From: Minisyncoccota bacterium
GTDB lineage: Bacteria > Patescibacteriota > Minisyncoccia > Phycocordibacterales > UBA2100
Reading direction: 5' to 3'
NCBI GenBank assembly: GCA_022842645.1
Contig: JALHPE010000001.1
Location: 199,711 to 263,710, forward strand
Length of the DNA stretch: 64,000 bases
Under the pieces are notes generated by a model. It worked only from the letters and a program-made list of their open reading frames with translations. It did no database searches and was not told the origin of the DNA. The position numbers and the translations under genes were made by a program. Below, piece by piece: positions 8,343 to 62,823 of the stretch (position 1 is the first letter of the stretch; each line of letters opens with the position of its first letter).

Positions 8343-8894
8343 CTAGTATGAAAGCTCCACCGAGCGCTGCAGCGCGCGACTTGAGGCGTCTATTTCAGAG
8401 CACACGGTCGAAAATCCATCAGCCTCGATCACGGTGCTACCAGTGGTCCTATTTTTTGTAACGGCAACGCGCGCACAATAGCCGTTTGGCTCATATTCAA
8501 ACGACATCGTATACACCGGCTGCCCCGCTGGTGGCGTCGGTGGCGTAATGACTAACGGCACGCTGTCGCATAATGGTGCGCCACTCGGTGTTGTTGAACT
8601 AAAATAACCAAATCGTACATCCCAATACAGCGCACACTCTGCGGCTGTGTCCGCGGCATAAAAGGCATATTGCGAACTACGCCCGAGCGAAGAAAGAATC
8701 ACTTGTTTTTGAGCTATAGAAAACACCGATATACCAAGAGCAAGTACCAAAGTAGCGACTAGTGCGGCAAGTAGAATGGTGAAGCCTCGTGAAGCAGGTG
8801 CTGGGTGGCAGGTGCTAGGTGTTAGGACATGCAAAAAGAAGGTTTTTGTCTTTCCCTGGAACCTAGCACCTAGAACCTGTAACCTGTTCATCAT
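8343..8894 (-). CDS. Type IV pilin-like pseudopilin with long leader peptide
   Basis: ...SRG|FTILLAALVATLVLALG prepilin-type N-terminus. ATG overlaps upstream stop (ATGATGA). Leader is encoded by heptad-repeat DNA. Confidence 0.6.
   Translation of the reverse strand: MMNRLQVLGARFQGKTKTFFLHVLTPSTCHPAPASRGFTILLAALVATLVLALGISVFSIAQKQVILSSLGRSSQYAFYAADTAAECALYWDVRFGYFSSTTPSGAPLCDSVPLVITPPTPPAGQPVYTMSFEYEPNGYCARVAVTKNRTTGSTVIEADGFSTVCSEIDASSRALQRSVELSY
8795..8888. repeat. Heptad-repeat array family A (CCTANNA / inverse AGGTGNT), inverted arms around an A/T-rich spacer; lies inside pseudopilin leader coding sequence
   Basis: caggtgctgggtggcaggtgctaggtgttagg ... cctggaacctagcacctagaacctgtaacctg. 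Confidence 0.6.
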
Positions 8895-9472
8895 ATGCCG
8901 TCGTCCACCCATCGGTGGAGATTCTCATAAATCGTAATAGTGCGCTCCTGCGACGTACCAGCATCCCAGGCAATGACAACCTCTATGCGAATTTCGTCTT
9001 GCGTTCCGTTCACGTATGAAACAGTCACCGTGCGTCGATATGGCGTATCGCTCCATCCCGCATTGTATCCATATAAGTCGCCATTCGTTTGAAGTCGAGA
9101 GCACTGTCCAGAACAAACTGTGATAGCGTTATTGCGCGTATCGATCACAAACGGAGTGCCAATAGGAATGCCACACAAGAGCGTTGTGGGGGAACACGTG
9201 ACAGAAGGATTGTTGAATGCAATACGCAAAATATTGCCGTCTCGAATCGCGCGCACGGATTCAATAGCTTCTTGCGCCAAGTTAAAAGCAACCACTTGAT
9301 CGCGCGCATAATACGAGGCTGAAAGCGATTGCATCGTCAGCGACATTGGCGCCACGATCGCAACGGTGAGAATAACGATGGCCACCATCGTTTCGATAAG
9401 GGTCATGCCTCGCGCCGAAGATGCTGCGCCCTCCTGATACTTGAGACTTGATACTTGATACTTGAATGTCAT
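8891..9472 (-). CDS. Type IV pilin-like pseudopilin
   Basis: Leader MTFKYQVSSLKYQEGAASSARG followed by MTLIETMVAIVILTVAIV (class III signal, Glu+5). Confidence 0.65.
   Translation of the reverse strand: MTFKYQVSSLKYQEGAASSARGMTLIETMVAIVILTVAIVAPMSLTMQSLSASYYARDQVVAFNLAQEAIESVRAIRDGNILRIAFNNPSVTCSPTTLLCGIPIGTPFVIDTRNNAITVCSGQCSRLQTNGDLYGYNAGWSDTPYRRTVTVSYVNGTQDEIRIEVVIAWDAGTSQERTITIYENLHRWVDDGI
9435..9466. repeat. Heptad-repeat array family C (CAAGTAT x4) inside pseudopilin leader coding sequence
   Basis: tgatacttgagacttgatacttgatacttgaa. Confidence 0.6.
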
Positions 9473-10161
9473 ATATCGAGTGCTCGTTGTACGGCGGTCG
9501 CCTGGATGTAGAAGGTACTGCGAACACGCGTGCTCTCCTCCCCTGCCGCACCTTTCACCACAATCACGACCTTCGGCTGTGTTGTGTCTTGCGGAGTAGA
9601 GCCAACAACATACATCTGCATTGACTCAATCTCCACCTCGGGAGAAGTGACAGGTATTGACGCGGCTCCTCCATTTTGAGATCGGTAGAGCCGTGGCCGT
9701 CCTTGTGCATCGTTTGCAATACTGTAGACAGTGCGTTCAGTTTGTGCGTTCGGGTTTGAGCCATACGGAGCAAACGAGAACACTGCTGGAATAGCGGTGA
9801 GCGGCGCAACTCCCTGAGCACAATCGCCCCAATTCGGCGCCTGTGGTATGGCGGTTGAGCCACAATTATAATGCGTGCCCATACGAATGGCGCGCACCAT
9901 ACTATCGAGCGAGATATTAAGATTATTCATCACACTTTCAAGAGAACGTGCTTTTCGATTTGCATCCACCAAAGAGAGGAGCGCGCCTACCGAGACGAGC
10001 ATAATCACACCGAAAAGAGCGATTGAGACCATCATTTCCACGAGAGTGAAGCCGCGGGGGTTAGGTTCTAGGCTCCAGGTTTTAGGTTTTAGGGAAAATG
10101 CACAAATGCATTTTTGTATTCCCTGCCCTCTAACACCTAACACCTGAGACCTGTTTTCCAT
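9469..10161 (-). CDS. Type IV pilin-like pseudopilin
   Basis: ...PRG|FTLVEMMVSIALFGVIM. 41-aa leader MENRSQVLGVRGQG..., paralogous to the leader of 8343..8894. Confidence 0.65.
   Translation of the reverse strand: MENRSQVLGVRGQGIQKCICAFSLKPKTWSLEPNPRGFTLVEMMVSIALFGVIMLVSVGALLSLVDANRKARSLESVMNNLNISLDSMVRAIRMGTHYNCGSTAIPQAPNWGDCAQGVAPLTAIPAVFSFAPYGSNPNAQTERTVYSIANDAQGRPRLYRSQNGGAASIPVTSPEVEIESMQMYVVGSTPQDTTQPKVVIVVKGAAGEESTRVRSTFYIQATAVQRALDI
10058..10152. repeat. Heptad-repeat array family A, inverted arms; inside pseudopilin leader coding sequence
   Basis: ggttaggttctaggctccaggttttaggttttaggg ... ccctctaacacctaacacctgagacctg. Confidence 0.6.
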
Positions 10162-10162
10162 A

Positions 10163-10756
10163 TTATTGAACCGCTATCTGGCCAGAAGCTTCAACATGTA
10201 CCTCAGCGCGCGCACCACGGGGTGACTCTAGAACAATGCGCACACGATCATCTGTTGGTATGCCCGCGGCCCGACGAATCAGTGCATCTGGCTCAGGACG
10301 GTAAAACATGATGTGGATCCCAGGAAGTCCGCAAGTTTCTATTGAACTCGAAGCATTGCGCGCACAGATATCAACAATCCTATAACCGCCCGCAAGCGTA
10401 ATTGTACGGACCGTCTCGCCTCCGTCGTAGACGCCGTTAGCGACTACATCCCCAAAGAGTTGATACACCGTCTGAGTCTCACCACTGGAAGGCACAAAAT
10501 ACATGCCGTACCCCACATCAAAATTTGAACCTGCAAAACGACGCACGGCAATGCCGTACACTTGTGCCTCACGCACCGTGAGCGCCATTTCATGCGCAAG
10601 ATTTTGCAAGATCACCCTATTGCCAAATCGCGTATTTGCAGAGAGTACTACCGAGGAAAGCACCATGAAAATCGCGGAAACTACCATCAGTTCTACAAGG
10701 GTAAACCCCCGAGAAACGATAGTATCGGCATGTGCGCGTGAAGAAGTGCAAACCAT
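10163..10756 (-). CDS. Type IV pilin-like pseudopilin
   Basis: ...SRG|FTLVELMVVSAIFMVL. True start probably downstream of the listed M (overlaps pilD stop). Confidence 0.55.
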   Translation of the reverse strand: MVCTSSRAHADTIVSRGFTLVELMVVSAIFMVLSSVVLSANTRFGNRVILQNLAHEMALTVREAQVYGIAVRRFAGSNFDVGYGMYFVPSSGETQTVYQLFGDVVANGVYDGGETVRTITLAGGYRIVDICARNASSSIETCGLPGIHIMFYRPEPDALIRRAAGIPTDDRVRIVLESPRGARAEVHVEASGQIAVQ

Positions 10757-11529: not shown

Positions 11530-11595
11530 AGCACCACTCTAGCACGCAAACACCCGCCTTTCGGCGGGTGTTTTTGAAACACGATTCTGAAGAAA

Positions 11596-12084: not shown

Positions 12085-12115
12085 AAATAAAAAATTATAA
12101 TAAATATTAGTAACG

Positions 12116-12595: not shown

Positions 12596-12639
12596 ACGCG
12601 TTGTTTAATAATAACAAAGCGTCTGATGTGGATATCGCA

Positions 12640-13845: not shown

Positions 13846-13852
13846 AAGGTAG

Positions 13853-13935
13853 TGGGTAGTTTGTAGACTGTAGTTTGTAGTGAATCTTTATGTGTGCATT
13901 TTCTACAAACTACAATCTACACACTACAAACTATT
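13853..13935. repeat. Heptad-repeat array family B (TACAAAC/TACAATC), inverted arms, upstream of pilC
   Basis: tagtttgtagactgtagtttgtag ... ctacaaactacaatctacacactacaaacta. Confidence 0.6.
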
Positions 13936-15024
13936 CTACAGTAATTTTTGAAGCAAATTCGGATTGAGCGAGTACTGGTATGCACTCTCGACGGTGATTT
14001 CGCCGCGTGTTACAAGCTCGGCGAGCGAACGATTCATGTCGATCATACCCTCTGCTGAAGACGTTTCAATCACAGTATTAATTTCGTGCGTGCGCTTCTC
14101 GCGAATAAGATTCGCGATGGCTTTGTTGTTGATAAGAAGCTCGTAGGCAGGAATGAGGCCGCCGGAAATGCGTGGAACAAGACGTTGACTGAAGATGCCT
14201 GCAAGCGACGAGCCAAGCTGTATTCGAATCTGATCCTGTTGATTTGCGGGGAAAGTATCAATAATGCGGTCGATTGTTTGTGCGGCGTTATTGGTGTGGA
14301 GCGTTGAAAACACGAGATGCCCGGTTTCCGCTGCAGTAACCGCCGCCGACATCGTCTCGTGCCCACGCATTTCTCCGACGAGAATCACATCCACATCCTG
14401 ACGAAATGCAGAAACGAGCGCTGTTGCGAAATCGCGTGTATCTATCAAAACCTCGCGCTGATCGACGAGCGAGCGCTTCGGTTCATAAATATATTCAACG
14501 GGGTCTTCAATTGTAACGATGTGCTCAGTGCGTTCGGTGTTGATCATTTCTATGAGCGAGGCGAGCGTTGTCGTCTTACCCTGCCCCACAGGACCCACCA
14601 CAAGGAAAAATCCCTGTGATTTGCGCGCAAAAGTCGTGAGAATGTCGGGAAGATTCAATTCCTCAAGTGTTTTTATCTGCTTCGGAATAAGGCGAAGGGC
14701 GATACCGACCGCACCGCGCTGGAAAAAAGCGTTCCCACGGAAACGATTACCATCGGCGGTCTGATACGCAAAGTCGACTTCGAGGGTCGAGAGAAATCGC
14801 CCTTGTTGATCTTTATTCAAAAGCACCTTCGCAAACGCCATGGTGTCCTCAGCAGTGAGCGGCGGCTCTTTGAGCATTGGCGTAAGCGAGCCCGAGACGC
14901 GAATCGTAGGATGCGCACCGGTCGAGAAGTGGAGGTCAGATCCCCCTTCGTGCACAAGAACATTAATGTACTTCTTCAGCGTTGCATCGTAATCCCCCAT
15001 TCCCATGCACACATTGTAGCGCAC
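13936..15024 (-). CDS. pilT: Type IV pilus retraction ATPase PilT (start probably at MGMGDYDATL, about 15006)
   Basis: 362 aa. Walker A GPVGQGKTTTLASLIEMIN, Asp/His boxes, signature AIANLIRE. Length and sequence fit PilT rather than PilB. Confidence 0.85.
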   Translation of the reverse strand: MRYNVCMGMGDYDATLKKYINVLVHEGGSDLHFSTGAHPTIRVSGSLTPMLKEPPLTAEDTMAFAKVLLNKDQQGRFLSTLEVDFAYQTADGNRFRGNAFFQRGAVGIALRLIPKQIKTLEELNLPDILTTFARKSQGFFLVVGPVGQGKTTTLASLIEMINTERTEHIVTIEDPVEYIYEPKRSLVDQREVLIDTRDFATALVSAFRQDVDVILVGEMRGHETMSAAVTAAETGHLVFSTLHTNNAAQTIDRIIDTFPANQQDQIRIQLGSSLAGIFSQRLVPRISGGLIPAYELLINNKAIANLIREKRTHEINTVIETSSAEGMIDMNRSLAELVTRGEITVESAYQYSLNPNLLQKLL

Positions 15025-18237: not shown

Positions 18238-18244
18238 GTATTTC

Positions 18245-18280
18245 CCTATACCCTAACCCCTAGAACCTAACACCTACCCT
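18245..18280. repeat. Heptad-repeat array family A directly upstream of rplT ATG
   Basis: ccctataccctaacccctagaacctaacacctaccct|ATG. Confidence 0.55.
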
Positions 18281-19730: not shown

Positions 19731-19915
19731 AAGTTTGAAAAAACTCCGCTACAAAAGCGAAGTCTTTTCAGGGCGGACGGTACAGGAAGCCTGGGCATTG
19801 GAGACCAGGTGGGTTTCCGCAGCGTTAAGGCGCATTGCCTCAAGCGATATGAGAATCCCGTTTGTGAACCAAGCAGGTTTAAGTACAGTCCGCTGGCTCG
19901 ATTATAGCAAATCGA

Positions 19916-19994
19916 GAAGTATCAAGTAACAGGTATCAAGTATCACGAAATTCGTTTGCTACTTGTGCAAATGATACTTTTTGATACTTGCTAC
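19916..19994. repeat. Heptad-repeat array family C, inverted arms, upstream of membrane-protein gene 19302..19730
   Basis: atcaagtaacaggtatcaagtatcac ... atgatactttttgatacttgctac. Confidence 0.5.
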
Positions 19995-20602: not shown

Positions 20603-20611
20603 ATTTGAATA

Positions 20612-20693
20612 GTGGGTGGTTAGTAGTTTGTAGATTGTAGTAAAGAAAACAAAAAAATCTCCGAACTACAAACTACAGTCTACAAACTACAGA
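20612..20693. repeat. Heptad-repeat array family B, inverted arms, upstream of ndk
   Basis: ggtggttagtagtttgtagattgtagt ... ctacaaactacagtctacaaactacagac. Confidence 0.6.
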
Positions 20694-23486: not shown

Positions 23487-23494
23487 AGGGAGAA

Positions 23495-23520
23495 GTATAC
23501 CGTATCGTGTATACCGTATG
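23495..23520. repeat. Heptad-repeat array family D (GTATNNN x5) directly upstream of the HerA-like ATPase start
   Basis: gtataccgtatcgtgtataccgtatgaggtatagg. Confidence 0.5.
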
Positions 23521-23530
23521 AGGTATAGGT

Positions 23531-36267: not shown

Positions 36268-36271
36268 AAAA

Positions 36272-36298
36272 TAGGTGCTAGGGGCTAGGTTTTAGGGG
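36272..36298. repeat. Heptad-repeat array family A directly upstream of rplW ATG (overlaps rplD 3' end)
   Basis: Minus strand reads cccctaaaacctagcccctagcacct-atttt-ATG. Confidence 0.55.
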
Positions 36299-46172: not shown

Positions 46173-46383
46173 AAAATTAAATATGACTAATGAATAATGC
46201 GGCTTGCGCCGAGACTGTCGCCAACGCGTTGGGTGCTCCGGTACTTTCTTGCCCTACCCCCTTTGCTTTTGACGCCAGCGGATTGCTAATCCGCACAAAG
46301 GAATTTGAGCAAAGAAATACGCACAGAGCGTGCGTGAACGCATAGTATCAAAATACCCCCTCGGCGCAAGTTGAGAAGCTACG

Positions 46384-47784: not shown

Positions 47785-47836
47785 TTATCAATCATTGCAT
47801 GCGCACTGACGTCGAACTTCCCTTCATGTGAACAAC

Positions 47837-48205
47837 TTACTCTGCCTGGTGGGAAACGACCTCCACATTGTGACCGTCCGGATCGATAACGAAGGCGGCA
47901 TAGTAGTTGGGGTGATATTGCTCGCGGATTCCCGGTGCGCCGTTGTCCTTTCCGCCCGCCGCAAGAGCCGCTGTATAAAAAGCATCGACGGCTGCGCGAT
48001 TGGGTGCGGTGAATGCGAGATGGACGGGGGTGGCTACCGTGCCGATCTCACCTATCCAAAGTTCCCCCTTCCCATTTTTTCCTAAGAAACCCCAGCCTTC
48101 GCCTGAACCTATCCATGCATACCCGAGTGGCGCTAAAGCTTGTTCATAAAATGAGCGTGAGGCCGCGAAGCTCTTCACGCCGAAACCGATGTGATCAAGT
48201 GACAT
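47837..48205 (-). CDS. VOC (glyoxalase/bleomycin-resistance) family protein
   Basis: MSLDHIGFGVKSFAASRSFYE...HLAFTAPNRAAVDAFY...AFVIDPDGHNVEVVSH. Confidence 0.65.
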   Translation of the reverse strand: MSLDHIGFGVKSFAASRSFYEQALAPLGYAWIGSGEGWGFLGKNGKGELWIGEIGTVATPVHLAFTAPNRAAVDAFYTAALAAGGKDNGAPGIREQYHPNYYAAFVIDPDGHNVEVVSHQAE

Positions 48206-48284
48206 ATGAAGAGTGTAGCATTTCGTAATCAATCCTACGTTACAACAACTTACCCCGCGCTCCTGCACCTCCTTTACACAGTGA

Positions 48285-49460: not shown

Positions 49461-49466
49461 AACCGC

Positions 49467-50954: not shown

Positions 50955-50963
50955 ACGTATGTG

Positions 50964-52403
50964 TTATTGCTGCGGTGGTAGTTGATGAGATTCTGTTCGA
51001 GTAATTTTGCGAAACACCACTAACAGAAGGATGATGAGAAGAAAACTAAAAATCAACATACCGATACCATAGATCGAATCCTTTATAGAAGATAGTGGCG
51101 AGACTTTCTTGGTAGAAGCACAGAGCGTGGGGTCAATATCTGCGCAGTCATACGTGAGCAGTGCCTCATCGACGAACTCCCCTTCCTGATACAATCGCGC
51201 CGAGAGCGTCACGTAGTCATACGTCTCTCCTGGAGTGAAGAGACTTTCAACCCCCATCATCGCGCCAGATACTTCACCATCATAACGATATTCATGTATG
51301 ACCTTGCCGTCGCGATCAGTAAGGCTCAGATCGAAGCTGACATTTTCCACACTCGGTGCGCTACCGGAATTATGAAGGCACGCAAATAGTACATTCTCTT
51401 GTCCGGCTGTTATTGGAAACGTGGTGATGCCGGGAAAATTAATACGCGGAATATCTATCCCTTCACGCACGAATCGTACGCCAATGATTGATTTTGCTCC
51501 ATTCCACGAAAGCGTGCCAACAACATAGTACACAGGGTAGTTGCTATTGCTCACGACAATCTCAACATCTGTCCCCCCCTCGGGAACGATGATATCGCGG
51601 AACTCCTCATCGATTACATTCTCTCTCAGCTGCGCATCCCATCGATACACGCTCCACGAAAGCGATGCGCGCTGTGATTTGCCGAGCGTGTTGTCGATAC
51701 GAGCGCGTACAGTAACTGGCGATACCGCGTCTTTTCTTGGTGGAAATGCCGCAAAGAAATACGGCTCATTATCGATAGTTACTTTCGCCTTGTCGAATCC
51801 GAAAGTCCCGACATGTTCGCTACTGACAGTGAACGGTACGGTATTCCCCACCACATCATCAGTGAATGAAAGACCGAGAAGATTAAATTTACGGGAGGTT
51901 GTGAAGAACGTCGCAAGCTGGTACTCCCCACTGAGCGCAAATGCGGGCACCTGCCATTTAAATGACACCGGGACTGAGCCTCCCGCAGGGATGGTGATAT
52001 CGCCCTCGACCAGGAATTGATCGACGACGTCCGGTCCGAGACCGTCATTTGCTCCGCCACGCGATTTGAAAATCTTCACGTATAAGGCGCCATCGACGAT
52101 TGGATACGGATTGCTGTTGACGAGATTGCCGCTGAAAGTAATCGGTGCGCCCGAAACCGTGCCAGAGACCTCTGCGCGGATGCGTGCCTGCACGGAACCG
52201 AATGTGTAGTAGTCGAAGCACGAAACAGTGCCCGGCGGGACGACGACATCTGCGAATCCTTCATCTTCATTCGAGGCTTCGATCACGCCATTTTCAATGA
52301 ACGCAGGTGCCTGAGCGTATGCAGAAAGAGGCAACGTTATAAGACCGATCAAGAAAATTGCGGCCGTCTTCACTCCTCCCTGAGAGCGATTGAGTACGAA
52401 CAT
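50964..52403 (-). CDS. Secreted hypothetical protein with C-terminal TM anchor
   Basis: 479 aa. N-terminal signal peptide. C-terminal IGMLIFSFLLIILLLVVFRKITR anchor. Confidence 0.4.
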   Translation of the reverse strand: MFVLNRSQGGVKTAAIFLIGLITLPLSAYAQAPAFIENGVIEASNEDEGFADVVVPPGTVSCFDYYTFGSVQARIRAEVSGTVSGAPITFSGNLVNSNPYPIVDGALYVKIFKSRGGANDGLGPDVVDQFLVEGDITIPAGGSVPVSFKWQVPAFALSGEYQLATFFTTSRKFNLLGLSFTDDVVGNTVPFTVSSEHVGTFGFDKAKVTIDNEPYFFAAFPPRKDAVSPVTVRARIDNTLGKSQRASLSWSVYRWDAQLRENVIDEEFRDIIVPEGGTDVEIVVSNSNYPVYYVVGTLSWNGAKSIIGVRFVREGIDIPRINFPGITTFPITAGQENVLFACLHNSGSAPSVENVSFDLSLTDRDGKVIHEYRYDGEVSGAMMGVESLFTPGETYDYVTLSARLYQEGEFVDEALLTYDCADIDPTLCASTKKVSPLSSIKDSIYGIGMLIFSFLLIILLLVVFRKITRTESHQLPPQQ

Positions 52404-52460
52404 GATTCTATTGTATATAAAATTTACCTACCAAAACGACATATCCCCAGCGATTCTTCG

Positions 52461-53624
52461 CTACTGGTAGATGTCGCAGCGCCCGTGGATCGACATACCG
52501 CCCGAGTATCCGCCGCAGACGAGTACCGCTCCACTCGATAATGCTGCTGCTGAATACATACTCCTCGTCAGCGGATCGTTCGCCGCTTGCGTCCAGGTAT
52601 TAGTCGCAACGTTATACAGATCGCATCGATTCGTATAACTACCTGTCGTGCCTCCGCACATGAGAACCCTCCCGTCGCTGATGCGCGCTGCAGCTATACT
52701 GCCTTTCACCTGCGGGAGATTGGCTACCTGAGTCCACATATTTGTAGTTGGATTGTAGATATCGCACCGATTCGTATAGGTCGCGCTGCGACCTGGCTTC
52801 ACCGTCATACCGCCACACAAGAGCACTCGCCCATCGGTCAACGTTGCTGCACCCGGATGCGATTTTGCTTGAGGAACACCAGCCACCTGCGTCCAGGTAT
52901 TCGTTGAATAATTATAGATATCGCAACGATTCGTGAGAACGCCGGTATCGCCGGCACAATAGAGGGCTCGACCATCTAAGAGAGCGACACCTACGACACC
53001 AGCCCTCCCACCTGCAGGCACGCTGGCAACTTGCGTCCACGCGTTCGTCGGAACATCATATGTGTAGCAACTGCCGTTCGGCGATACCGCTGCCCCGCCA
53101 CAGATCAATACGCGATTGTTCCCGAGCAGTACGGCTGTCGAATATCCGAGTGGCGCCGGCATGCTCGCGACTGCAGTCCACGTGTTGCTCGTGGGATTAT
53201 ATATTTCGCAGTTGGCAATGACGCCAGAGTAGGATTGGTTCATGCCGCCGCATACAAGCGCACGCCCATCAGCAAGACCGACCAACATATGAGAAAAACG
53301 CCCCTGTACCATGTTCGCGCGCTGCGTAAACGTATTCAACCAACAGCTCCCTGCCGTCACCCCACTCGGTGGATTTGTATAAAACGACGCCCACTCGGCT
53401 GCGGTGACAGTCGGAACGTAGAGGCTTGCGCCAGTTGTGCTGTTGTTTGTCACATTGCGGCATGTCGAGTGCGCAGTGATCGCAAGGCTTCCGCCATGAT
53501 TCACGGTGGAACTGTCGGAGGCTTCGAGTACGATCGCAGAAAATGCGAGAGCAGCGAGCGTCAGTACAAGAAAGGCGAGCATCGGCCCCAGAAAGGTCCG
53601 AAGCCGTGATGCACCTAGAACCAT
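52461..53624 (-). CDS. Secreted Kelch-like beta-propeller protein with conserved N-terminal SDSSTV module
   Basis: RCDIYN.TTNMWTQVA-type blades. N-terminal module shared with the two proteins above. Confidence 0.6.
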   Translation of the reverse strand: MVLGASRLRTFLGPMLAFLVLTLAALAFSAIVLEASDSSTVNHGGSLAITAHSTCRNVTNNSTTGASLYVPTVTAAEWASFYTNPPSGVTAGSCWLNTFTQRANMVQGRFSHMLVGLADGRALVCGGMNQSYSGVIANCEIYNPTSNTWTAVASMPAPLGYSTAVLLGNNRVLICGGAAVSPNGSCYTYDVPTNAWTQVASVPAGGRAGVVGVALLDGRALYCAGDTGVLTNRCDIYNYSTNTWTQVAGVPQAKSHPGAATLTDGRVLLCGGMTVKPGRSATYTNRCDIYNPTTNMWTQVANLPQVKGSIAAARISDGRVLMCGGTTGSYTNRCDLYNVATNTWTQAANDPLTRSMYSAAALSSGAVLVCGGYSGGMSIHGRCDIYQ

Positions 53625-53626
53625 AA

Positions 53627-54175
53627 TTACATCTGAGATTTGAGGGTCTCGATGTCCGCCTTGAGCACATCTATTTCACGCTGCTGCTCTTTTACCGCCT
53701 CAATAAGAACGCCGATGAGCTGATCGTATTCGACCGACTTAAAACCATCTGCACTGGTGTGTACCGCACTGGGAAGCACGGCTTCTACCTCCTGCGCGAT
53801 GATGCCAGCGCCTTGGGTGCCGTCTTTTTTCCAATTAAATGAAACGCCACGGATTTTTTCAAGAATGGAAAGTCCCTGGAGAGGCGCAATATTCTCTTTT
53901 AAACGCGCGTCAGACGAATGAAAATATCCGAGTGCCGTTACATTATTCCCTACAGTCAATGTGCCAGTGAGCGAACTATTACCAAAAACGGCGAGCGCAT
54001 TGACTGAAAGTCCCGCATTTTTAACCTGATCTGTGGTTCCCACATTCACCGGAGGAGAGACATTACCGTTTGGCGGAGATTGTGAGGGACCCGTCCACGC
54101 CGTCACGGAAAAACCAATGGAAACGAGAGTGATGACAAGCGAGAGCACTATGCCTCGAAGCGAAAACACATACAT
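53627..54175 (-). CDS. Small secreted protein consisting of a short fibre-like segment plus peptidase S74 (intramolecular chaperone auto-processing) domain
   Basis: ...GYFHSSDARLKENIAPLQGL...FNWKKDG...VEYDQLIGVLIEAVKEQQREIDVLKADIETLK matches the S|DxRxK autocleavage site and coiled-coil of tail-fibre/endosialidase C-terminal chaperone domains. Confidence 0.55.
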   Translation of the reverse strand: MYVFSLRGIVLSLVITLVSIGFSVTAWTGPSQSPPNGNVSPPVNVGTTDQVKNAGLSVNALAVFGNSSLTGTLTVGNNVTALGYFHSSDARLKENIAPLQGLSILEKIRGVSFNWKKDGTQGAGIIAQEVEAVLPSAVHTSADGFKSVEYDQLIGVLIEAVKEQQREIDVLKADIETLKSQM

Positions 54176-54271
54176 GAGAAAAGTATATGCTCCGGGAAAT
54201 GTATGGCGACTTCTTTTGAAAGAAATCTGGGGACAAGTCTTCGCGTTTAGTTTGATTTAAAAGTGCAAAAA

Positions 54272-56428
54272 CTAAATCTCCTTCCAATCCGGCCGTCGCG
54301 ATACCGTGGCGGTTTGCGTAAGATTCCCTCCAAGACCGGTGCAGAAAAGTGTGTAGGTGGTCATACGCGTGAGCGGAGATGATGTTTCGGAACCAGAAAG
54401 CATGCTCCATAAGTCGTCGATGTCCGGATTGTCTTCTGTCACGGTGCACGAGGTTGCGCTTTGCACATTCCAGGATACGGTGACGGTGTTGTTGTAGCCG
54501 ATGAAGGAAGGAGAGACACGAAGTTCGCCGCCCGAAGCAGTGAACGGGGCGGGGGGCAGGGTGCAGGTGCCTGCGGAGCAGATGAGGCCGGTGCTACAAG
54601 CTTCTATAGGAGCATTGGTGCATGCATTCTGTCGATGTGTGCTGTCGGTGCAGACGTAGGTGGAGGCGCATGCCGGAAGCCAGGTGGTTTGCACGGGGTT
54701 TGAGCCAGCGTTGAAACTGACCCATCCTACGTTTGTGTCTCCCCACGCATAGCCTGAGAGTGTGCTACTCGCGAGTGTCGGGCCGTAGGTGGGAGATGTA
54801 CCAGAGAGACTGATGAAGCCGTCCCAACCGCCGCTTTGTGGATCGTTTGCGGAGAGCACCTTCATCCAACCCCTGAGTGCAAGATCTTCCATGCGTGCAG
54901 TGCAGGTGCCCGAGGGACATCCAAGAAGATCATTTGCACTCGCACTCACCCAGCCGACATTTGCGCTCCATGCACAGCCCGAGAATGTGCCGTCGTTTGC
55001 GATTGCGACGCCGAAGTTGCTCGCGCCACAGGTGCCAGAGTTCTGGCAGCTGAAATCGATCCATCCGATGGTGTCGCTCCAGGCGTAGCCGGTCACAGGA
55101 GTGCCTCCTGATGCAACGGTACATTGAGGAAGTGCAATGATTGCACTATCTTCGTTGGAATATGGACTGTCGCCCACTGCATTAGTGGCAACGGCGCGGT
55201 AGTAGTAGGTGGTGTTGGGTGAGGCAGTGGTGTCGTCGAAGGTGTTTACGACGCCGACTGACGTGAGGAGTGTCGTGGGATTTGAGGATGTGCCACGGTA
55301 GATCTTGTAGCCAGTGATTGCGCTGCCGCCGTTGCTTGAAGGAGTGTTCCACGTGAGAGAGATGCTGTCCGCGTCTGCGGTGGCGTTGAGGGATTGGGGG
55401 GCGGTGGGGGCTACAGAAGTGACTGACGCATAGTAAATGACGTTAGTGCGATTGGCGCCCGTAAACATACCGCCAAATAAGTACGCAAAACTACCAATGA
55501 AAGAAAATTGAGAAGACGCTAATGCTCCCGGCAAGACAGCTCCTGTATCAGTCCATACGGTCGGACTCGATACGTGAGCCCGATAAATATTATTAGAATA
55601 TACGCTGCCACCAGAGATACCACCGAGAGCGTAGACGTAGTCACCGACTACCCCGACGGCATGATGTCCAAGCGCTTTCGGAAGCACGTTCGTTTCGCGG
55701 ATCCAGCTTGTCGGATTAGATAGTGGCGCGCGATAGATCTGGTTCGTATATGCACCGCCTGAGGTATCTCCTCCGAATAGGTACACATTGCTTCCTACTA
55801 TTGCCAATCGCGATCCGGAGAGATTATTTGGCAGAGTCGCGCCTGTATTTGTCCAACTCAGCGGATTCGTAAGCGGCGCTCGGTAAATTGCACTCGTACT
55901 GACCGAAGGCCCTGTCTGGCCTCCGAATAGGTACACGTAGTCCCCGATTACGGCGGCTTGTGAAGAACCTACCACGTTCGGCAGTGTACTTCCGGTATTT
56001 GTCCAAGTCGTGGGATTAGACACCGGCGCACGATATATGACGTTGGTATACTGCAATCCCGTATATCCGCCGAAAAGATACACGTAGTCCCCGATTACCA
56101 TGGCCTGCGATGAACCGAGATTACCTGGCAATGTCGCCCCTGTATTAGTCCAACTTAGCGGGTTGGCAACTGGCGCTCGATAAATGACGTTGGTATACGA
56201 TGGAGAACCTTGCCCACCAAATAGATATATGTAATCTCCTATGGTGACGAGCTGCGAACCTCGGAGAACGCCGGGTAGTGTCCCTGGCGCAACCGTCCAC
56301 CCACCCTCATTGAGAGTCTGTGAATCTACCTTTTGTGGCTCCGCAGAAAAAGAAACAATGAATGCAATGGAAGCAAGAAGCACCAAAAGCCCAGAAACAT
56401 GGTGCGCTCGAATACTCCGTTTATTCAT
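54272..56428 (-). CDS. Secreted Kelch-like beta-propeller protein with fibronectin type III domain
   Basis: Seven YRAP(L/V)(S/T)NP..WTNTG..LP repeats, then FN3-like ...ISLTWNTPSSNGGSAITGYKIYRG...YYYRAVATN. Confidence 0.6.
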   Translation of the reverse strand: MNKRSIRAHHVSGLLVLLASIAFIVSFSAEPQKVDSQTLNEGGWTVAPGTLPGVLRGSQLVTIGDYIYLFGGQGSPSYTNVIYRAPVANPLSWTNTGATLPGNLGSSQAMVIGDYVYLFGGYTGLQYTNVIYRAPVSNPTTWTNTGSTLPNVVGSSQAAVIGDYVYLFGGQTGPSVSTSAIYRAPLTNPLSWTNTGATLPNNLSGSRLAIVGSNVYLFGGDTSGGAYTNQIYRAPLSNPTSWIRETNVLPKALGHHAVGVVGDYVYALGGISGGSVYSNNIYRAHVSSPTVWTDTGAVLPGALASSQFSFIGSFAYLFGGMFTGANRTNVIYYASVTSVAPTAPQSLNATADADSISLTWNTPSSNGGSAITGYKIYRGTSSNPTTLLTSVGVVNTFDDTTASPNTTYYYRAVATNAVGDSPYSNEDSAIIALPQCTVASGGTPVTGYAWSDTIGWIDFSCQNSGTCGASNFGVAIANDGTFSGCAWSANVGWVSASANDLLGCPSGTCTARMEDLALRGWMKVLSANDPQSGGWDGFISLSGTSPTYGPTLASSTLSGYAWGDTNVGWVSFNAGSNPVQTTWLPACASTYVCTDSTHRQNACTNAPIEACSTGLICSAGTCTLPPAPFTASGGELRVSPSFIGYNNTVTVSWNVQSATSCTVTEDNPDIDDLWSMLSGSETSSPLTRMTTYTLFCTGLGGNLTQTATVSRRPDWKEI

Positions 56429-58130: not shown

Positions 58131-58183
58131 GCAGAACACCCCGTAACCGTGTACGGGGTATTCTTATAGCAAAGCCTCCGGTG

Positions 58184-59020: not shown

Positions 59021-59036
59021 TTATATAAATGAATAA

Positions 59037-60590: not shown

Positions 60591-60645
60591 CGAACCTCAT
60601 ACTAACATGTACTACTGCGCACGATTTCATGCGCATGCCGCAAAA

Positions 60646-62787
60646 TTATTTACGCGATGCAATTACCTCATCTGCCACGTTGCGCGGAACGACAGCGTAG
60701 TGTGAGAACTCAAGGTTTGGTACTGCGCGACCTTCGGTGAGGGAGCGGAGTTGTGTAGTGTAACCGAAGAGTTCTGAAAGCGGTACTTTTGCGACGACAA
60801 CACGTGCCTGACCACGTTCACCCATTGATTCAATGAGACCACGCTTTGCGTTGATGGAGCCTGTCACGTCGCCCAAGAATTTCTCTGGCGTAACAACCTC
60901 AAGCTTCATGACTGGCTCGAGAAGAACCGGCTTCGCCTGCTTCATCGCTTCCTGCATCGCGTTTATTGCGGCGAGCTTGAAGGCGATTTCTGAGGAGTCC
61001 ACATCGTGCGCGGAGCCGTCGTAAAGGTCGACGGAAATATCAACAACTGGGAATCCAGCGAGAACCCCACGATCCATTGCCTCCTTGAGACCCTTTTTGA
61101 TTGGGGAAATAAATTCTGCTGGGATAACGCCTCCTTTGATGTTGTTCACGAATTCAAAGTGGTCTTCACGGTCAACATTGTTCTTCACCTTTTCACCCTC
61201 TACAACTGGCTCGAGTGGCTTCATGCGAATCTTCACGTGACCATACTGACCGCGACCACCCGTCTGCTTGATGTGCTTGTATTCAACATCCGCGGTGCCC
61301 TGAATCGTTTCGCGGAAGGCAACCTGCGGCTTCCCTGTCGTTGCTTCCACCCCGAACTCGCGCTTCATGCGATCGACGAGAATTTCGAGGTGAAGCTCAC
61401 CCATCCCGGAGATAATGGTCTCACCCGTTTCTTCATCGGATTTAACGCGGAACGTTGGATCTTCGTCGGAAAGACGCGAAAGTGCGATACCGAGCTTCTC
61501 CTGATCAGCCTTTGTCTTTGGCTCGACGCGCATGGAAATAACAGGTGTTGGGAAGACAATGGATTCAAGCGCGATCGGGTGATCGCCGTCGCAAACGGTG
61601 TTACCAATCTTCACCTCCTTCATGCCAACGAATGCAGCGATTTCTCCTGCAAAGACTTCCTCCACTTCCTCGCGCTTGTCTGCCTGGAGGCGGACGATGC
61701 GTCCCACACGCTCCTTCTTATTGTTCGCTGAGTTGTAGACAGTGTCACCCGCTTTGACTGAGCCGGAATAGACGCGGAAGAAGGTGAGAGCACCCACGAA
61801 CGGATCGACTTGGAGTTTGAAGACGAGCGCTGCAAATGGACCATCATCTTTTGCGGGACGAGTTTCCTCTGCGCCGGTGTCAGTATTGATGCCCGTTGCC
61901 GCTGGAAGGTCGAGTGGCGACGGAAGGTAGTCGACAACCGCATCGAGGACGAGTTGCACACCCTTGTTCTTGAGCGAGGAACCCGTGAGAACTGGGAAGA
62001 TTTCATTCTTGATAACCGCCTTGCGAAGATTTGCCTTCAACACATCAAGTGGAATCTCCTTCCCTTCGAGGTAGTCGTTCATGAGCTTCTCATCGTTTTC
62101 CACGATACGCTCGACGAGTTCGGCATGGTACTTCTTTGCGTCTTCCATCATCTCTGCTGGAATGTCATAGGCAATAACCTCCTTACCCATTTCGCCTTCA
62201 AACTTGTAGGCTTTCATCGAGAGAAGATCGACAACGCCGTTGAAGTCTCCTTCTGCGCCGATTGGAATCTGGAGACGAACTGCCTTTGTGGAAAGTCGCT
62301 CGAGGATGGAAGCGTATGACTTCTCAAAGCTTGCACCGGTGCGGTCGAGCTTGTTGATATAGCAAATGCGGGGCACTTCCGCTTCTTCAGCGTATCTCCA
62401 GTTGGTTTCAGACTGTGGCTCCACACCAGCAACGCCGTCGAAGACGACGACTGCGCCGTCGAGAACGCGCATCGAACGCTTCACTTCCGATGTGAAGTCG
62501 ATATGTCCTGGAGTGTCGATAACGTTAAAGCGTACTTTCTGGGAGATGTCGGTACCCATGTAGGTTGGGTTCCAGAAACAAGTAATAGCGGCGGCGGTGA
62601 TGGTGATGCCACGCTCGCGCTCCTGTTCCATCCAGTCGGTCACCGTTGCACCGTCGTGCACTTCACCGATTTTGTGGCTCATTCCGGTATAGAAAAGGAT
62701 ACGCTCAGACGTGGTGGTCTTCCCAGCGTCCACGTGGGCGACGATACCGAAGTTGCGGACTTTTTCGAGAGGATAATCGCGGCTCAT
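60646..62787 (-). CDS. fusA: Elongation factor G
   Basis: 713 aa. [21 protein letters not shown] and domains II-V. Confidence 0.95.
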
Positions 62788-62788
62788 A

Positions 62789-62823
62789 CTAGGTTATAGG
62801 TGTCAGGTGTTAGGTTCTAGGGG
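62789..62823. repeat. Heptad-repeat array family A (CCTAGAA CCTAACA CCTGACA CCTATAA CCTAGT) directly upstream of fusA ATG
   Basis: Minus strand reads cccctagaacctaacacctgacacctataacctagt|ATG. Confidence 0.6.

What the first reader, a model, noticed from the sequence alone, without database searches (positions are those of the whole stretch)
8795..62823. Genome-specific 7-bp-periodic tandem repeat arrays placed immediately upstream of start codons (four families)
At 10 or more places in this window, the 25-40 nt directly preceding a start codon is built from 3-5 tandem heptamers. Family A is CCTANNA. It precedes rplT (18245-18280), rplW (36272-36298) and fusA (62789-62823), and also lies inside the two pseudopilin leader-coding regions (8795-8888, 10058-10152). 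Family B is TACAAAC/TACAGTC, upstream of pilC (13853-13935) and ndk (20612-20693). Family C is CAAGTAT (9435-9466, 19916-19994). Family D is GTATACC/GTATCGT, upstream of the 928-aa ATPase (23495-23520). In mRNA orientation the proximal arm is G-poor and C/A-rich, with no Shine-Dalgarno sequence. At several loci a second, inverted copy of the same array sits 25-30 nt further upstream, across an A/T-rich spacer, making a long imperfect palindrome. The strict 7-nt register, the shared TA core across families, and the fixed position abutting the ATG are not explained by any annotated feature. They suggest a dedicated translation-initiation or transcription-factor recognition syntax. An unstructured CA-rich enhancer replacing SD, or an array of binding sites for a repeat-type nucleic-acid-binding protein, are both possible. 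Alternatively this is a MITE-like miniature repeat family that targets 5' ends.
Basis: seen in the sequence. Interest (0 to 1): 0.8.

Follow-up and report, generated by a model that had tools for sequence, protein, structure and literature searches.

The report
Heptamer repeat arrays at gene boundaries
Short 7-base tandem repeats, often paired into hairpins, fill the gaps between genes and the cleaved-off front ends of pilin genes in this Parcubacteria (CPR) genome; the repeat class is already known from cyanobacteria, Xanthomonas and giant sulfur bacteria, and its function is still unproven.

Summary
The 7-nt arrays are real and far beyond chance: 13 lag-7 segments against 0-2 at other lags, and CCTANNN x3 occurs 14 times against 0.09 expected. 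The description needs correcting. Six arrays abut a start codon (pilC, rplT, ndk, 928-aa ATPase, rplW, fusA). Three lie after the ATG, in frame inside minor-prepilin leaders. One follows the ndk stop. Five are 80-95-nt hairpins and five are single, unstructured, G-poor arms.

The phenomenon is not genome-specific. CCTA heptamer arrays with the same layout occur in many phyla. The class is published: cyanobacterial heptamer repeats, TAACTGA repeats in Beggiatoaceae, GGGAATC in Xanthomonas/Nostoc. All have the same position and strand bias and no proven function.

Close relatives lack the arrays at rplT and mostly at ndk, so this is not a conserved initiation syntax. The genome has no Shine-Dalgarno sites anywhere. 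Family D is a 14-nt duplication of a leaderless -10 box.

New here: a discrete ~95-nt family-A hairpin sits in frame in prepilin leaders of three related genomes. The same leader sites host other heptamer families in other genomes, always with the pilin frame open (12/12).

Verdict: new member of a known, functionally unresolved repeat class.

The parts
8796..8888 (-). Family A (CCTANNA) hairpin element, about 93 nt. It lies in frame inside the leader of the minor prepilin 8343-8891. The leader reads MNRLQVLGARFQGKTKTFFLHVLTPSTCHPAPASRG, followed by FTILL after the cleavage site.
   Evidence: Sequence. RNA fold -39.8 kcal/mol, z -3.4. Only the pilin frame is free of stops. Homologous to copies in L207 and L209.
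9435..9466 (-). Family C (CAAGTAT) single arm of 4.4 units. It lies in frame in the leader of prepilin 8891-9472 (MTFKYQVSSLKYQEGAASSARG, then MTLIE after the cleavage site). The ATG overlaps the upstream stop (ATGA).
   Evidence: TRF, 91% matches. Sequence and translation. No structure.
10058..10152 (-). Family A hairpin element, in frame in the leader of minor prepilin 9469-10161 (MENRSQVLGVRGQGIQKCICAFSLKPKTWSLEPNPRG, then FTLVEMM after the cleavage site).
   Evidence: (-32.7 kcal/mol). Slots where TAG/TAA would fall in frame read CAG or TGG instead. The identical protein is found on 13 contigs.
13846..13935 (-). Family B (GTAGTTT/CTACAAA) hairpin. It fills the spacer from the pilB stop (UAG, 13936-13938, in 7-nt register with the UAG-containing units of the array) to 3 nt before the pilC ATG (13845).
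   Evidence: -39.2 kcal/mol, z -7.0. An orthologous hairpin with a conserved loop but a different arm unit is in L207. L208 has an empty site.
18244..18280 (+). Family A single arm of 5 units, between the rpmI stop and the rplT ATG (18281).
   Evidence: Unstructured. Absent in 9 relatives, which have an 11-25-nt A/T-rich spacer.
19914..19994 (-). Family C hairpin starting 3 nt after the ndk stop (19997). It is followed by a promoter and a structured non-coding RNA, not by a start codon.
   Evidence: (-30.7 kcal/mol, z -4.6).
20606..20693 (-). Family B hairpin between the stop of the 928-aa gene (20700) and the ndk ATG (20602). Its 3' end (ACCCACTA) is shared with the pilC copy.
   Evidence: (-28.5 kcal/mol, z -3.5). 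The nearest relative, L127, has a different heptamer hairpin (CGAAAYN) at the same junction. Other relatives have a -10 box instead.
23487..23527 (-). Family D: a 14-nt tandem duplication of the extended -10 region (ATACGGTATACACG, then ATACGGTATACTTC) of the leaderless promoter of the 928-aa ATPase gene (ATG 23486).
   Evidence: In most of the close relatives examined (seven of twelve loci) there is a single TATACT/TATAAT box 6-7 nt before the ATG; L127 reads GATACGGTATACT.
36268..36298 (-). Family A single arm. It supplies the rplD stop codon (TAG, 36285-36287) and ends 4 nt before the rplW ATG (36267).
   Evidence: Unstructured.
62788..62823 (-). Family A single arm abutting the fusA ATG (62787). 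It lies downstream of a promoter-like TTGCAA-16-TATATT and a small stem plus T-run, so it is in a real 5' UTR.
   Evidence: The promoter was read by eye from the sequence and is an inference.
46173..46203 (-). Possible weak extra array (CATTANT x3) abutting the tuf ATG (46172).
   Evidence: The lag-7 segment appears only at the lower threshold. Not analysed further.

Best explanation
These are heptanucleotide simple-sequence-repeat arrays, the same class as cyanobacterial heptamer repeats, the TAACTGA repeats of Beggiatoaceae and the GGGAATC repeats of Xanthomonas/Nostoc. Here they are in a Parcubacteria (Kaiserbacteria-like) CPR genome.

Shown:
- They are young and turn over quickly.
- At least one (family D) arose by local 7/14-nt tandem duplication.
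- Family A also exists as a discrete ~95-nt palindromic element, copied among sites and genomes.
- They survive only where extra sequence is harmless: stop-to-start spacers of co-directional genes, and prepilin leaders that are cleaved off. In the leaders they are kept free of in-frame stop codons, so they are translated.
- The G-poor strand is the mRNA strand next to the start codon.

Inferred:
- The arrays are made and remodelled by slipped-strand replication in 7-nt steps. Template switching between the two arms of a palindrome keeps the arms complementary while the unit sequence drifts.
- They are not a dedicated initiation signal.
- At RNA level a single G-poor arm cannot base-pair. It therefore leaves the AUG accessible in a genome that uses no Shine-Dalgarno pairing.
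- In the hairpin form the 5' arm starts 0-9 nt after the upstream stop and the 3' arm ends 3-38 nt before the downstream coding start (3 nt at pilC; about 24 nt including the array's degenerate last units at ndk). The ~90 inserted bases are looped out, and the stop and start stay side by side at the base of the stem. This would preserve termination-reinitiation coupling. That geometry would explain why long insertions at gene junctions are palindromic.
For: Class and layout:
- 7-nt periodicity is far above chance.
- The same arrays and the same hairpin-then-ATG layout occur in many phyla, including CPR (Levyibacteriota L087 between secY and adk; Uhrbacteria L062).
- Over 119 CCTA-type arrays, a stop lies within 40 nt upstream on the G-rich sense strand in 44 cases, against 18 on the C-rich strand. 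A start lies within 40 nt downstream on the C-rich sense strand in 16 cases, against 7. This reproduces the published bias (PMC4692102 sections 13 and 16).
- PMC4679880 describes repeats within a few nt of start codons, without SD, in ribosomal protein operons, overlapping upstream stops and at protein termini.

Turnover:
- No array upstream of rplT in 9 relatives.
- 0-2 arrays per 20 kb in the closest relatives.
- A different family, or an empty site, at orthologous junctions.

In-situ origin:
- Family D is a duplicated -10 box.
- The L207 pilB-pilC arm unit, AACGTAG, matches the empty-site spacer TAG-GAACGT-ATG of L208.

Concerted arms:
- The pilB-pilC hairpins of the window and L207 share their loop (ATGCACACA...ATTCAC) but have different arm units. 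Both still fold (z -7.0 and -5.2).

Tolerance filter:
- 12 of 12 leader-embedded elements are open in the pilin frame. Only 3 of 24 other frames are open, and 5 of 30 frames of non-coding elements. The shuffle product probability is 4e-10.

Context:
- SD-like motifs precede 6 of 33 genes. -10 boxes lie 6-8 nt before many ATGs.
- Single arms are unstructured.
- Reduced structure around the start is the proposed rule for non-SD genes (PMC5397173 abstract).
Against: - Slippage alone does not explain why the same unit recurs at several loci (family A at 5, B at 2).
- It also does not explain why family A copies are more conserved than the flanking pilin genes (82% against 67% between the window and L207).
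- The looped-out coupling idea is geometry only. No expression data exist.
- It cannot apply to the three elements that lie inside ORFs.
- The family A hairpins are weak (z -1.0 to -3.4), because only the CCTA/TAGG cores pair.
- Sequences are identical on 13-15 contigs from several samples, so no ongoing slippage was seen.
- The G-poor orientation bias in other CPR loci is only a trend (14 against 9, p = 0.4).
Confidence: 0.6

Rival explanations
1. REPIN/MITE-like mobile element. The hairpins are non-autonomous palindromic elements, and the single arms are their half-copies. A transposase encoded elsewhere in the genome moves them, with a preference for gene boundaries.
For: - Six to seven family A copies in three genomes align without gaps over about 100 nt at 66-90% identity.
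- Non-orthologous copies (pilinX, 3, 4, 5 leaders) are as similar as orthologous ones. Copies within L207 are 85-90% identical. Some copies are more conserved than the flanking coding DNA.
- Single arms at rplT, rplW and fusA start with the same TTCCCCTA boundary as the 3' arm of the hairpin.
- The mix of doublets and singlets recalls REP/REPIN (from my own knowledge of Bertels and Rainey 2011; not re-read here).
Against: - No target-site duplication appears at filled versus empty sites: pilB-pilC in the window or L207 against L208, and rplT against 9 relatives.
- No transposase or RAYT was found among 20 window proteins scanned against Pfam or among the 27 gene calls of L001.
- The arms are tandem heptamers, not REP-type palindromes.
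- Family D clearly arose in situ.
- The adjacent paralogous pilin genes could exchange leaders by gene conversion, without any transposition.
Confidence: 0.15
2. Dedicated post-transcriptional signal. The G-poor heptamer arrays are multivalent binding sites for an RNA-binding protein (ribosomal protein S1, a cold-shock protein with a roughly 7-nt footprint, or a CsrA-like factor). This protein recruits ribosomes or co-regulates the array-bearing genes in place of Shine-Dalgarno pairing.
For: - Arrays abut the AUG of highly expressed genes (rplT, rplW, fusA, possibly tuf) in a genome without SD.
- fusA has a real 5' UTR, so it needs some SD-independent entry route (inference).
- Orientation is consistent in this window.
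- The same proposal was made for TAACTGA repeats (PMC4679880) and for Nostoc heptamers (bioRxiv 10.1101/2022.06.06.494920).
Against: - Orthologous genes in close relatives do without the arrays.
- Four or more unrelated unit sequences in one genome would need several binders or a sequence-blind one.
- Most SD-less genes here have no array (33 of 42).
- Half of the loci pair the supposed binding arm into a hairpin.
- Three arrays lie inside ORFs.
Confidence: 0.13
3. Phase-variation (contingency) loci. Because 7 is not a multiple of 3, gain or loss of one unit inside the prepilin leaders would switch minor pilins on and off. Unit changes in spacers would tune expression.
For: - Three arrays sit in the 5' coding region of surface-exposed minor pilins.
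- The same sites carry heptamer arrays in four syntenic genomes.
- Simple-sequence repeats near N-termini are a known signature of frameshift switching (discussed in PMC4692102).
Against: - The units are imperfect, with at most 2-3 identical units in a row. Such tracts slip rarely.
- There are no length variants among 13-15 contigs from several samples.
- Most arrays flank housekeeping genes.
- The inverted-arm layout is not needed for switching.
- Rehm et al. reached the same negative conclusion for their repeats.
Confidence: 0.06
4. Ordinary transcription signals. The hairpins are intrinsic terminators or attenuators, and the TA-containing units are promoter -10 boxes.
For: - Family D really is a -10 box.
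- Family C and D units resemble the genome's TATACT box.
- Hairpin centres often read as an A-run, a small stem and a T-run. The L175 rplJ hairpin has a clear terminator at its centre.
Against: - None of the five hairpins is called terminator-like on the sense strand, and no T-run follows the long stems.
- Apart from family D, no TANNNT box sits at the 6-8-nt distance from the ATG seen at leaderless genes (read).
- Three elements are inside ORFs.
Confidence: 0.06

Closest known systems
TAACTGA heptamer direct repeats of marine Beggiatoaceae, also in cyanobacteria and Bacteroidetes (MacGregor 2015, PMC4679880)
   Same: - 2-6 tandem heptamers, mostly within a few nt upstream of start codons and in a fixed orientation.
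- No Shine-Dalgarno sequence.
- Present in ribosomal-protein operons.
- Some overlap the upstream stop codon.
- A few lie at the ends of ORFs.
- Patchy phylogenetic distribution, and no mobile-element genes found.
- Function untested.
   Different: - One dominant unit there, against at least four here (CCTANNA, CTACAAA, CAAGTAT, GTATACN).
- Only one inverted pair was reported there. Half of the loci here are long hairpins.
- No discrete conserved element with a defined loop was reported there.
GGGAATC / GGGGA(C/T)T heptamer repeats of Xanthomonas and Nostoc (Rehm et al. 2015, PMC4692102)
   Same: - Located between co-directional ORFs.
- The G-rich strand is sense within 50 bp after stops. The C-rich strand is sense within 50 bp before starts.
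- Inverted pairs can form stem-loops.
- Transcribed.
[quoted passage not shown]
- No link to phase variation or to mobile elements.
   Different: - Those units carry G-tracts and form G-quadruplexes in vitro, with a preference for four units.
- Families B, C and D here have no G-tracts. Family A has only GG.
- Occupancy of prepilin leaders was not reported there.
Cyanobacterial STRR (short tandemly repeated repetitive) heptanucleotide sequences, and the survey of long simple-sequence repeats by Mrazek et al. 2007
   Same: - Several heptamer families per genome, mainly non-coding.
- Heptamers are the commonest long simple-sequence-repeat unit in prokaryotes.
- A polymerase-slippage origin has been proposed (as summarised in PMC4679880, and PMC4692102).
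- Many cyanobacterial hits in the CCTA scan.
   Different: - STRR arrays are often much longer (tens of units).
- The primary papers were not read here. The resemblance rests on secondary citation and my own recollection.
REP / REPIN elements (and Correia-type MITEs)
   Same: - Short extragenic palindromic repeats that occur as singlets and as inverted doublets forming roughly 100-nt hairpins.
- They lie between genes and are transcribed within operons.
- They form a dispersed family of diverged copies.
   Different: - REP units are themselves palindromes with a conserved 5' tetranucleotide and depend on a RAYT transposase. Correia elements make TA duplications.
- Here the arms are tandem heptamers. 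No duplication and no transposase were found.
SD-independent initiation through local absence of mRNA structure (Nakagawa et al. 2017, PMC5397173)
   Same: The genome lacks SD. Pre-start regions are G-depleted. The single-arm arrays are extreme cases of structure-free leaders.
   Different: That rule needs no repeats and no 7-nt register. The hairpin versions go against it.

Membership tests
Heptanucleotide simple-sequence-repeat arrays (STRR / TAACTGA / GGGAATC class) | Tandem head-to-tail copies of a 7-nt unit, at least 3 units | tested here: met
   TRF gives period 7 or 14 at ten loci, with 1.9-4.7 copies of the reported period, i.e. 3.4-4.8 heptamer units. Lag-7 gives 13 segments against 0-2 at other lags.
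Heptanucleotide simple-sequence-repeat arrays (STRR / TAACTGA / GGGAATC class) | The same unit recurs at several unlinked loci of one genome, far above chance | tested here: met
   Family A at 5 loci (14 pattern matches against 0.09 expected). Family B at 2 loci (11 against 0.07).
Heptanucleotide simple-sequence-repeat arrays (STRR / TAACTGA / GGGAATC class) | Mostly non-coding, between co-directional ORFs, close to the start or stop codon | tested here: met
   All ten loci lie at junctions of same-strand genes. Seven are non-coding and three lie in cleaved leader-coding sequence.
Heptanucleotide simple-sequence-repeat arrays (STRR / TAACTGA / GGGAATC class) | Strand bias: G-rich strand is sense after stops, C-rich (G-poor) strand is sense before starts | tested here: met
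   This window: all five hairpins and the three family A single arms (rplT, rplW, fusA). Across 119 arrays from many phyla: 44 against 18, and 16 against 7. In other CPR loci it is only a trend.
Heptanucleotide simple-sequence-repeat arrays (STRR / TAACTGA / GGGAATC class) | Length and sequence variation, or presence/absence, between related genomes | tested here: met
REP / REPIN | Each repeat unit is itself a 20-40-nt imperfect palindrome with a conserved terminal tetranucleotide | tested here: not met
   Single arms have no self-complementarity (MFE -2.5 to -10.9 kcal/mol, z about 0). GTAG occurs in every family B unit, not once at an end.
REP / REPIN | Cognate RAYT (Y1 transposase) gene in the genome | not testable with these tools
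   Only 64 kb of the genome is available. None was found among 20 proteins scanned and 27 precomputed gene calls.
MITE | Target-site duplication flanking the element | tested here: not met
   Filled against empty sites: pilB-pilC (window and L207 against L208), rpmI-rplT (window against 9 relatives), pilin5 leader (window against L208). No duplicated flank was seen.
MITE | Multiple similar copies with terminal inverted repeats at unrelated sites | tested here: inconclusive
   Family A copies are 66-90% identical at pilinX, 3, 4 and 5 leaders in three genomes. However, all hairpin copies lie in neighbouring paralogous genes, where gene conversion is an alternative.
Intrinsic (Rho-independent) terminator | G+C-rich stem followed directly by a T-run | tested here: not met
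   None of the five hairpins is listed on the sense strand. No T-run follows the long stems.
Phase-variable contingency repeat | Perfect repeat tract whose unit number varies within a population | tested here: not met
   Units are imperfect. Sequences are identical on 6 fetched contigs and the pilin protein is identical on 13 contigs. This is a weak test, because no reads were examined.
Shine-Dalgarno ribosome-binding site | GGAGG-like motif 5-10 nt upstream of the start | tested here: not met
   Absent at all array genes and at 27 of 33 other genes.
Rfam RNA families | Match to a curated covariance model | tested here: not met
   The only hit at gathering score in the window is a group I intron elsewhere.

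The most novel reading that the evidence does not exclude
The heptamer hairpins may be a distinct, self-propagating class of palindromic element in CPR bacteria. A dedicated activity, either an unknown nuclease/transposase or a 7-nt-register nucleic-acid-binding protein, would keep their arms in 7-nt register and mutually complementary. The elements would home to the first bases after a stop codon. There they would act as looped-out coupling devices in an SD-less, leaderless-type translation system. When the stop overlaps the next ATG, they would be read through as part of the prepilin leader. My evidence does not exclude this. It would explain why the same leader sites are re-occupied by different families in four genomes, and why family A is more conserved than its host genes.
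Probability: 0.12. Interest if true: 0.75.

Novelty: new member of a known kind. Interest (0 to 1): 0.4.

Why it matters
What heptamer repeats next to start codons do has been open since they were first seen in cyanobacteria. The two detailed surveys and one reporter study read here all end with 'function to be elucidated'.

This window adds a new phylum and compact genomes in which the array is the whole spacer from stop to start. It also adds a set of syntenic relatives in which gain, loss, replacement and in-frame translation of the elements can be seen site by site. That makes some origin questions tractable by comparative genomics alone: slippage against mobility, and tolerance against function.

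Practical consequences:
- Gene callers produce prepilins with 35-40-residue leaders that are translated repeat elements.
- The arrays should not be annotated as ribosome-binding sites or regulatory motifs.

It does not reveal a new translation-initiation mechanism.

Tried and rejected
- Rfam at gathering score on the whole window, and at E <= 1 on two sub-regions: nothing at the arrays.
- tRNA scan of array-rich CPR loci, to test whether the arrays flank tRNA genes: none.
- Strain variation at the arrays among contigs carrying the identical ndk: all identical, so uninformative about slippage.
- Peptide search with the 40-aa family A leader: the first attempt was too short. The second found no candidate through the word index, so one search was wasted.
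- Profile search of the leader against 1.84 billion representatives: one genuine hit, another minor prepilin (P0121). The other five were unrelated repetitive proteins. So there is no sign of the family A element translated inside non-pilin proteins. The 50% clustering hides most N-terminal variants.
- Promoter/terminator consensus scan: the hairpins are not canonical terminators, and promoter-like hits are below the shuffle expectation.
- Anti-SD mimicry (CACCU in family A resembles the 16S 3' end): dropped, because families B-D and the units in other CPR genomes have no such resemblance. The 16S gene is not in the window.
- Promoter -10 origin for all families: holds for D, is plausible for C, and is not demonstrable for A or B.
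- G-poor orientation rule in other CPR loci: only a non-significant trend once A/T-rich arrays are included.
- Automated search for the intron-split tRNA over a grid of splice points failed. A manual splice succeeded.

Full report
**What is in the sequence**

Tandem Repeats Finder reports period 7 or 14 at ten loci.

I ran a self-similarity scan using 21 compared positions and requiring at least 15 matches. It finds 13 segments at lag 7. Lags 4-6, 8-13 and 15 give 0-2, and lag 14, a multiple of 7, gives 8.

CCTANNNCCTANNNCCTA with up to one mismatch occurs 14 times, against 0.09 expected from dinucleotide-preserving shuffles. CTACNNNCTACNNNCTAC occurs 11 times against 0.07.

**Anatomy**

There are two forms.

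Five loci are long imperfect palindromes of 80-95 nt:

| Locus | Family | Fold energy (kcal/mol) | z-score |
|---|---|---|---|
| 8796-8888 | A | -39.8 | -3.4 |
| 10058-10152 | A | -32.7 | -1.3 |
| 13846-13935 | B | -39.2 | -7.0 |
| 20606-20693 | B | -28.5 | -3.5 |
| 19914-19994 | C | -30.7 | -4.6 |

Five loci are single arms that fold no better than shuffles:
- rplT 18244-18280
- rplW 36268-36298
- fusA 62788-62823
- the prepilin leader 9435-9466
- 23487-23527

In every hairpin the 5' arm, in mRNA sense, is G/T-rich and starts 0-9 nt after the stop codon of the upstream gene. At pilB the stop UAG lies in 7-nt register with the UAG-containing units of the array. The 3' arm is C/A-rich and G-poor. 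It ends 3-38 nt before the ATG or before the mature pilin sequence.

Gene identities are confirmed: L20, NDK, T2SSF, T2SSE, L23, L4, L35, EF-G, EF-Tu, prepilin N-methyl motifs and prepilin peptidase.

Only six arrays precede a start codon. Three lie after the ATG, inside prepilin leader-coding sequence. One (19914-19994) follows the ndk stop and precedes a promoter and a non-coding RNA.

**Genome context**

Homologues of the pilin are labelled Parcubacteria, Paceibacterota, Minisyncoccia and Candidatus Kaiserbacteria. Relatives come from 0.1-um groundwater fractions. The window is therefore from a CPR bacterium.

It has no Shine-Dalgarno sites. A GGAG/GAGG/AGGA motif is present before only 6 of 33 array-free genes. 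G is depleted at -13 to -1. A G(G/C)TATACT box sits 6-8 nt before many ATGs, which is the signature of leaderless transcripts.

In most of the close relatives examined, the 928-aa ATPase gene has a single such box 6-7 nt before its ATG. In this window the box region is duplicated in tandem (ATACGGTATACACG, then ATACGGTATACTTC). Family D is therefore a local 14-nt duplication of a promoter.

**Not genome-specific**

I scanned one genome per species of bacteria and archaea for five CCTA cores at 7-nt spacing. The hits include many cyanobacteria, Planctomycetes, Bacteroidota, Acidobacteriota, Proteobacteria (Pseudoxanthomonas, Thiobacillus, Methylotenera, Aliivibrio fischeri) and two CPR genomes.

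Many show the same layout. One example is Levyibacteriota L087: secY stop, then (TAGGGTN)4, a 12-nt loop, (CCCTAAN)5, then the adk ATG.

Across 119 such arrays, a long ORF ends within 40 nt upstream 44 times when the G-rich strand is taken as sense, against 18 for the C-rich strand. A long ORF starts within 40 nt downstream 16 times for the C-rich strand against 7.

**Already described**

- MacGregor (PMC4679880) reported 169 sets of TAACTGA repeats in a Beggiatoaceae genome. Most lie a few nucleotides upstream of start codons, without SD, including in ribosomal-protein operons. Some overlap upstream stops or sit at protein termini. S1, Csp or CsrA were suggested as readers, and nothing was tested.
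- Rehm et al. (PMC4692102) found GGGAATC and GGGGAYT heptamers in Xanthomonas and Nostoc between co-directional ORFs. The G-rich strand follows stops and the C-rich strand precedes starts. Inverted pairs can form stem-loops. The repeats are transcribed and variable between sister species, with function unknown.
- Both cite Mrazek et al. 2007: heptamers are the commonest long simple-sequence repeat in prokaryotes, and a polymerase-slippage origin was proposed.
- A Nostoc preprint deleted such repeats and saw modest, unexplained effects.
- I found no report for CPR.

**Turnover in relatives**

I collected 80 loci around homologues of the 928-aa protein (39-78% identity).

- The closest relatives have 0-2 lag-7 arrays per 20 kb.
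- The patterns for families A and B match 4 and 12 positions in 1.07 Mb of these loci, against 16 and 8 in this 64 kb.
- The rpmI-rplT spacer in nine relatives is 11-25 nt, A/T-rich, and has no array.
- The junction between the 928-aa gene and ndk has a -10 box in most relatives. In the nearest one (L127, 76%) it has a hairpin built from a different heptamer (CGAAAYN) in the opposite polarity.
- More distant CPR loci carry their own families (CTACTNA, GAGTAGT, TTTGAGA, AAGCTAW and others). These often run from stop to ATG, as before mreB in L183 and before rplJ and tgt in L175.
- In L175 and L182, arrays are also inserted in frame inside tgt and a second gene.

So the arrays are evolutionarily young and replaceable. 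That argues against a conserved initiation or transcription-factor syntax.

**The prepilin leaders: the new part**

The three arrays inside pilin genes lie between an ATG that overlaps or abuts the upstream stop (ATGA, TGATG, TAATATG) and the Gly-Phe/Met cleavage site. Only the pilin frame is free of stops. Where a TAG or TAA of the repeat would fall in frame, the unit reads CAG, TGG or TGC instead.

Orthologues of pilin 9469-10161 in other Parcubacteria (50-86% identity) fall into three groups:
- Short leaders, for example MRQAHEKG followed by F.
- Long leaders with the same motif, NRLQVLGxRFQGKxK..F..SLTPSTxHLAPxSRG.
- Long leaders that read like translations of other heptamers, for example YRDKGQGTRDKGRG...LHPSIPSSLHPS and FRIPHSKFHIPNP.

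I fetched DNA for three syntenic genomes: L207, L208 and L209. Family occupancy of the four leader sites is:

| Leader site | Window | L209 | L208 | L207 |
|---|---|---|---|---|
| pilinX | none | not covered | not examined | A |
| pilin3 | A | A | GTCAACG arm | A |
| pilin4 | CAAGTAT arm | A | AGCTGRA hairpin | CAGCCAA hairpin |
| pilin5 | A | GCTTGTA hairpin | none | A |

All 12 elements are open in the pilin frame. Only 3 of 24 other frames are open, and 5 of 30 frames of non-coding elements are open. The product of the shuffle probabilities is 4e-10. They are therefore almost certainly translated and removed with the leader.

A caveat on that statistic: the leaders come from gene calls, which favour open frames. 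I examined the pilin3, pilin4 and pilin5 junctions in all four genomes and saw none with a broken frame.

**Family A as a discrete element**

Six copies align without gaps over about 100 nt, including the loop (GGGAAA.ACAAA...TTTTTGCAT).

- Pairwise identity is 66-90%.
- Within L207 it is 85-90%.
- Non-orthologous pairs are as similar as orthologous ones.
- The pilin5 copies of the window and L207 are 82% identical, while the adjacent mature-pilin DNA is 67% identical.

The single arms at rplT, rplW and fusA begin with the same TTCCCCTA boundary as the 3' arm.

This is the best evidence for copying between sites, by transposition or by gene conversion among the neighbouring paralogous pilin genes. 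A profile of the leader peptide found only one further protein among 1.84 billion representatives, and it too is a minor prepilin. No target-site duplication is visible at filled versus empty sites. No transposase was found in the window.

**Arms evolve in concert**

The pilB-pilC hairpin exists in the window and in L207. The loop is conserved (ATGCACACA...ATTCAC), but the arm units differ (GTAGTTT against GTAGAAC). Both still fold strongly (z -7.0 and -5.2).

L208 has the empty site TAG-GAACGT-ATG. Its spacer resembles the L207 unit AACGTAG. I infer from this that units are seeded from local sequence, expanded in 7-nt steps, and copied between arms.

**How it most likely works**

Shown:
- The class, the layout and the strand bias.
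- The rapid turnover.
- The in-situ origin of family D.
- The dispersed family A element.
- The maintenance of the reading frame.

Inferred:
- Generation is by slipped-strand replication, plus template switching within palindromes.
- Persistence depends on tolerance.
- A G-poor single arm keeps the AUG unpaired in an SD-less genome. This is consistent with the view that low structure around the start matters most where SD is rare (PMC5397173).
- In a hairpin, the stop-proximal and start-proximal bases pair at the base of the stem. The ~90 inserted bases are looped out, and a terminating ribosome still sits next to the downstream AUG.
- This would preserve the stop-start coupling that the many overlapping gene pairs in this window suggest.

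I put 0.6 on this package. Most of that confidence rests on class membership and origin. The RNA-level role is a hypothesis.

The rivals are, in order: a REPIN/MITE-like mobile element (0.15), a dedicated protein-read signal (0.13), phase variation (0.06), and ordinary terminators or promoters (0.06).

**Verdict**

The finding is a genuine, well-described instance of a known but functionally unresolved repeat class, in a phylum where I found no report of it. It is not a new initiation mechanism and not genome-specific.

The part a specialist might not expect is the recurrent, in-frame, translated occupation of minor-prepilin leaders by heptamer hairpins, with one element more conserved than its host genes.

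Noticed in passing
window 2898-3198 (-): A tRNA-Met(CAU) gene is split in its anticodon loop by a 228-nt group I intron. The exons are about 3198-3167 and 2938-2898, and the intron is 3166-2939. ARAGORN misses the gene unless the intron is removed by hand. Rfam calls the intron at 69.8 bits.
   Followed up: yes
window 19755-19900 (-): A conserved structured RNA of about 140 nt has its own promoter (TTGCTATAAT). It is followed by a stem plus T-run just before the ATG (19730) of a 142-aa membrane protein, a riboswitch-like arrangement. It is conserved in seven relatives, with compensatory changes at 13 of 34 predicted pairs. No Rfam family matches it.
   Followed up: partly
window, many gene starts (e.g. 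4569, 23486, 38143, 44870, 56793): The genome has essentially no Shine-Dalgarno motifs. Many ATGs lie 6-8 nt downstream of a G(G/C)TATACT box, so a large share of transcripts is probably leaderless. Relatives show the same box before the 928-aa ATPase gene and ndk.
   Followed up: partly
L175 6291-7574 and 8206-9708; L182 6520-7923: In two distant, A/T-rich CPR contigs, heptamer arrays (CAAAAGT, AAAATTA, AAGCTAW, TTTGAGA) are inserted in frame inside tgt and a second gene. At least one sits at the same position in both contigs. The same unit families also sit before rplJ, rplL and tgt start codons.
   Followed up: partly
L208 14946-16338: A reverse transcriptase (RVT_1) next to a bAvd-like gene, resembling a diversity-generating retroelement, lies between the ligA region and gatC. 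This window has nothing at that position.
   Followed up: no
window 46453-56428 (-): A run of paralogous predicted secreted or membrane proteins shares an N-terminal hydrophobic segment followed by the motif EASDSSTV.
   Followed up: no
window 46173-46203 (-): A weak three-unit CATTANT array abuts the tuf start codon. It is seen only at the lower periodicity threshold.
   Followed up: no
window 10693-10756 (-): The pilin-like gene 10163-10756 starts inside the 3' end of the prepilin peptidase gene, a 64-nt overlap if the ATG at 10756 is used. One gene caller instead begins it at 10687, after the cleavage motif (SRG, then FTLVEL), which truncates the prepilin.
   Followed up: no
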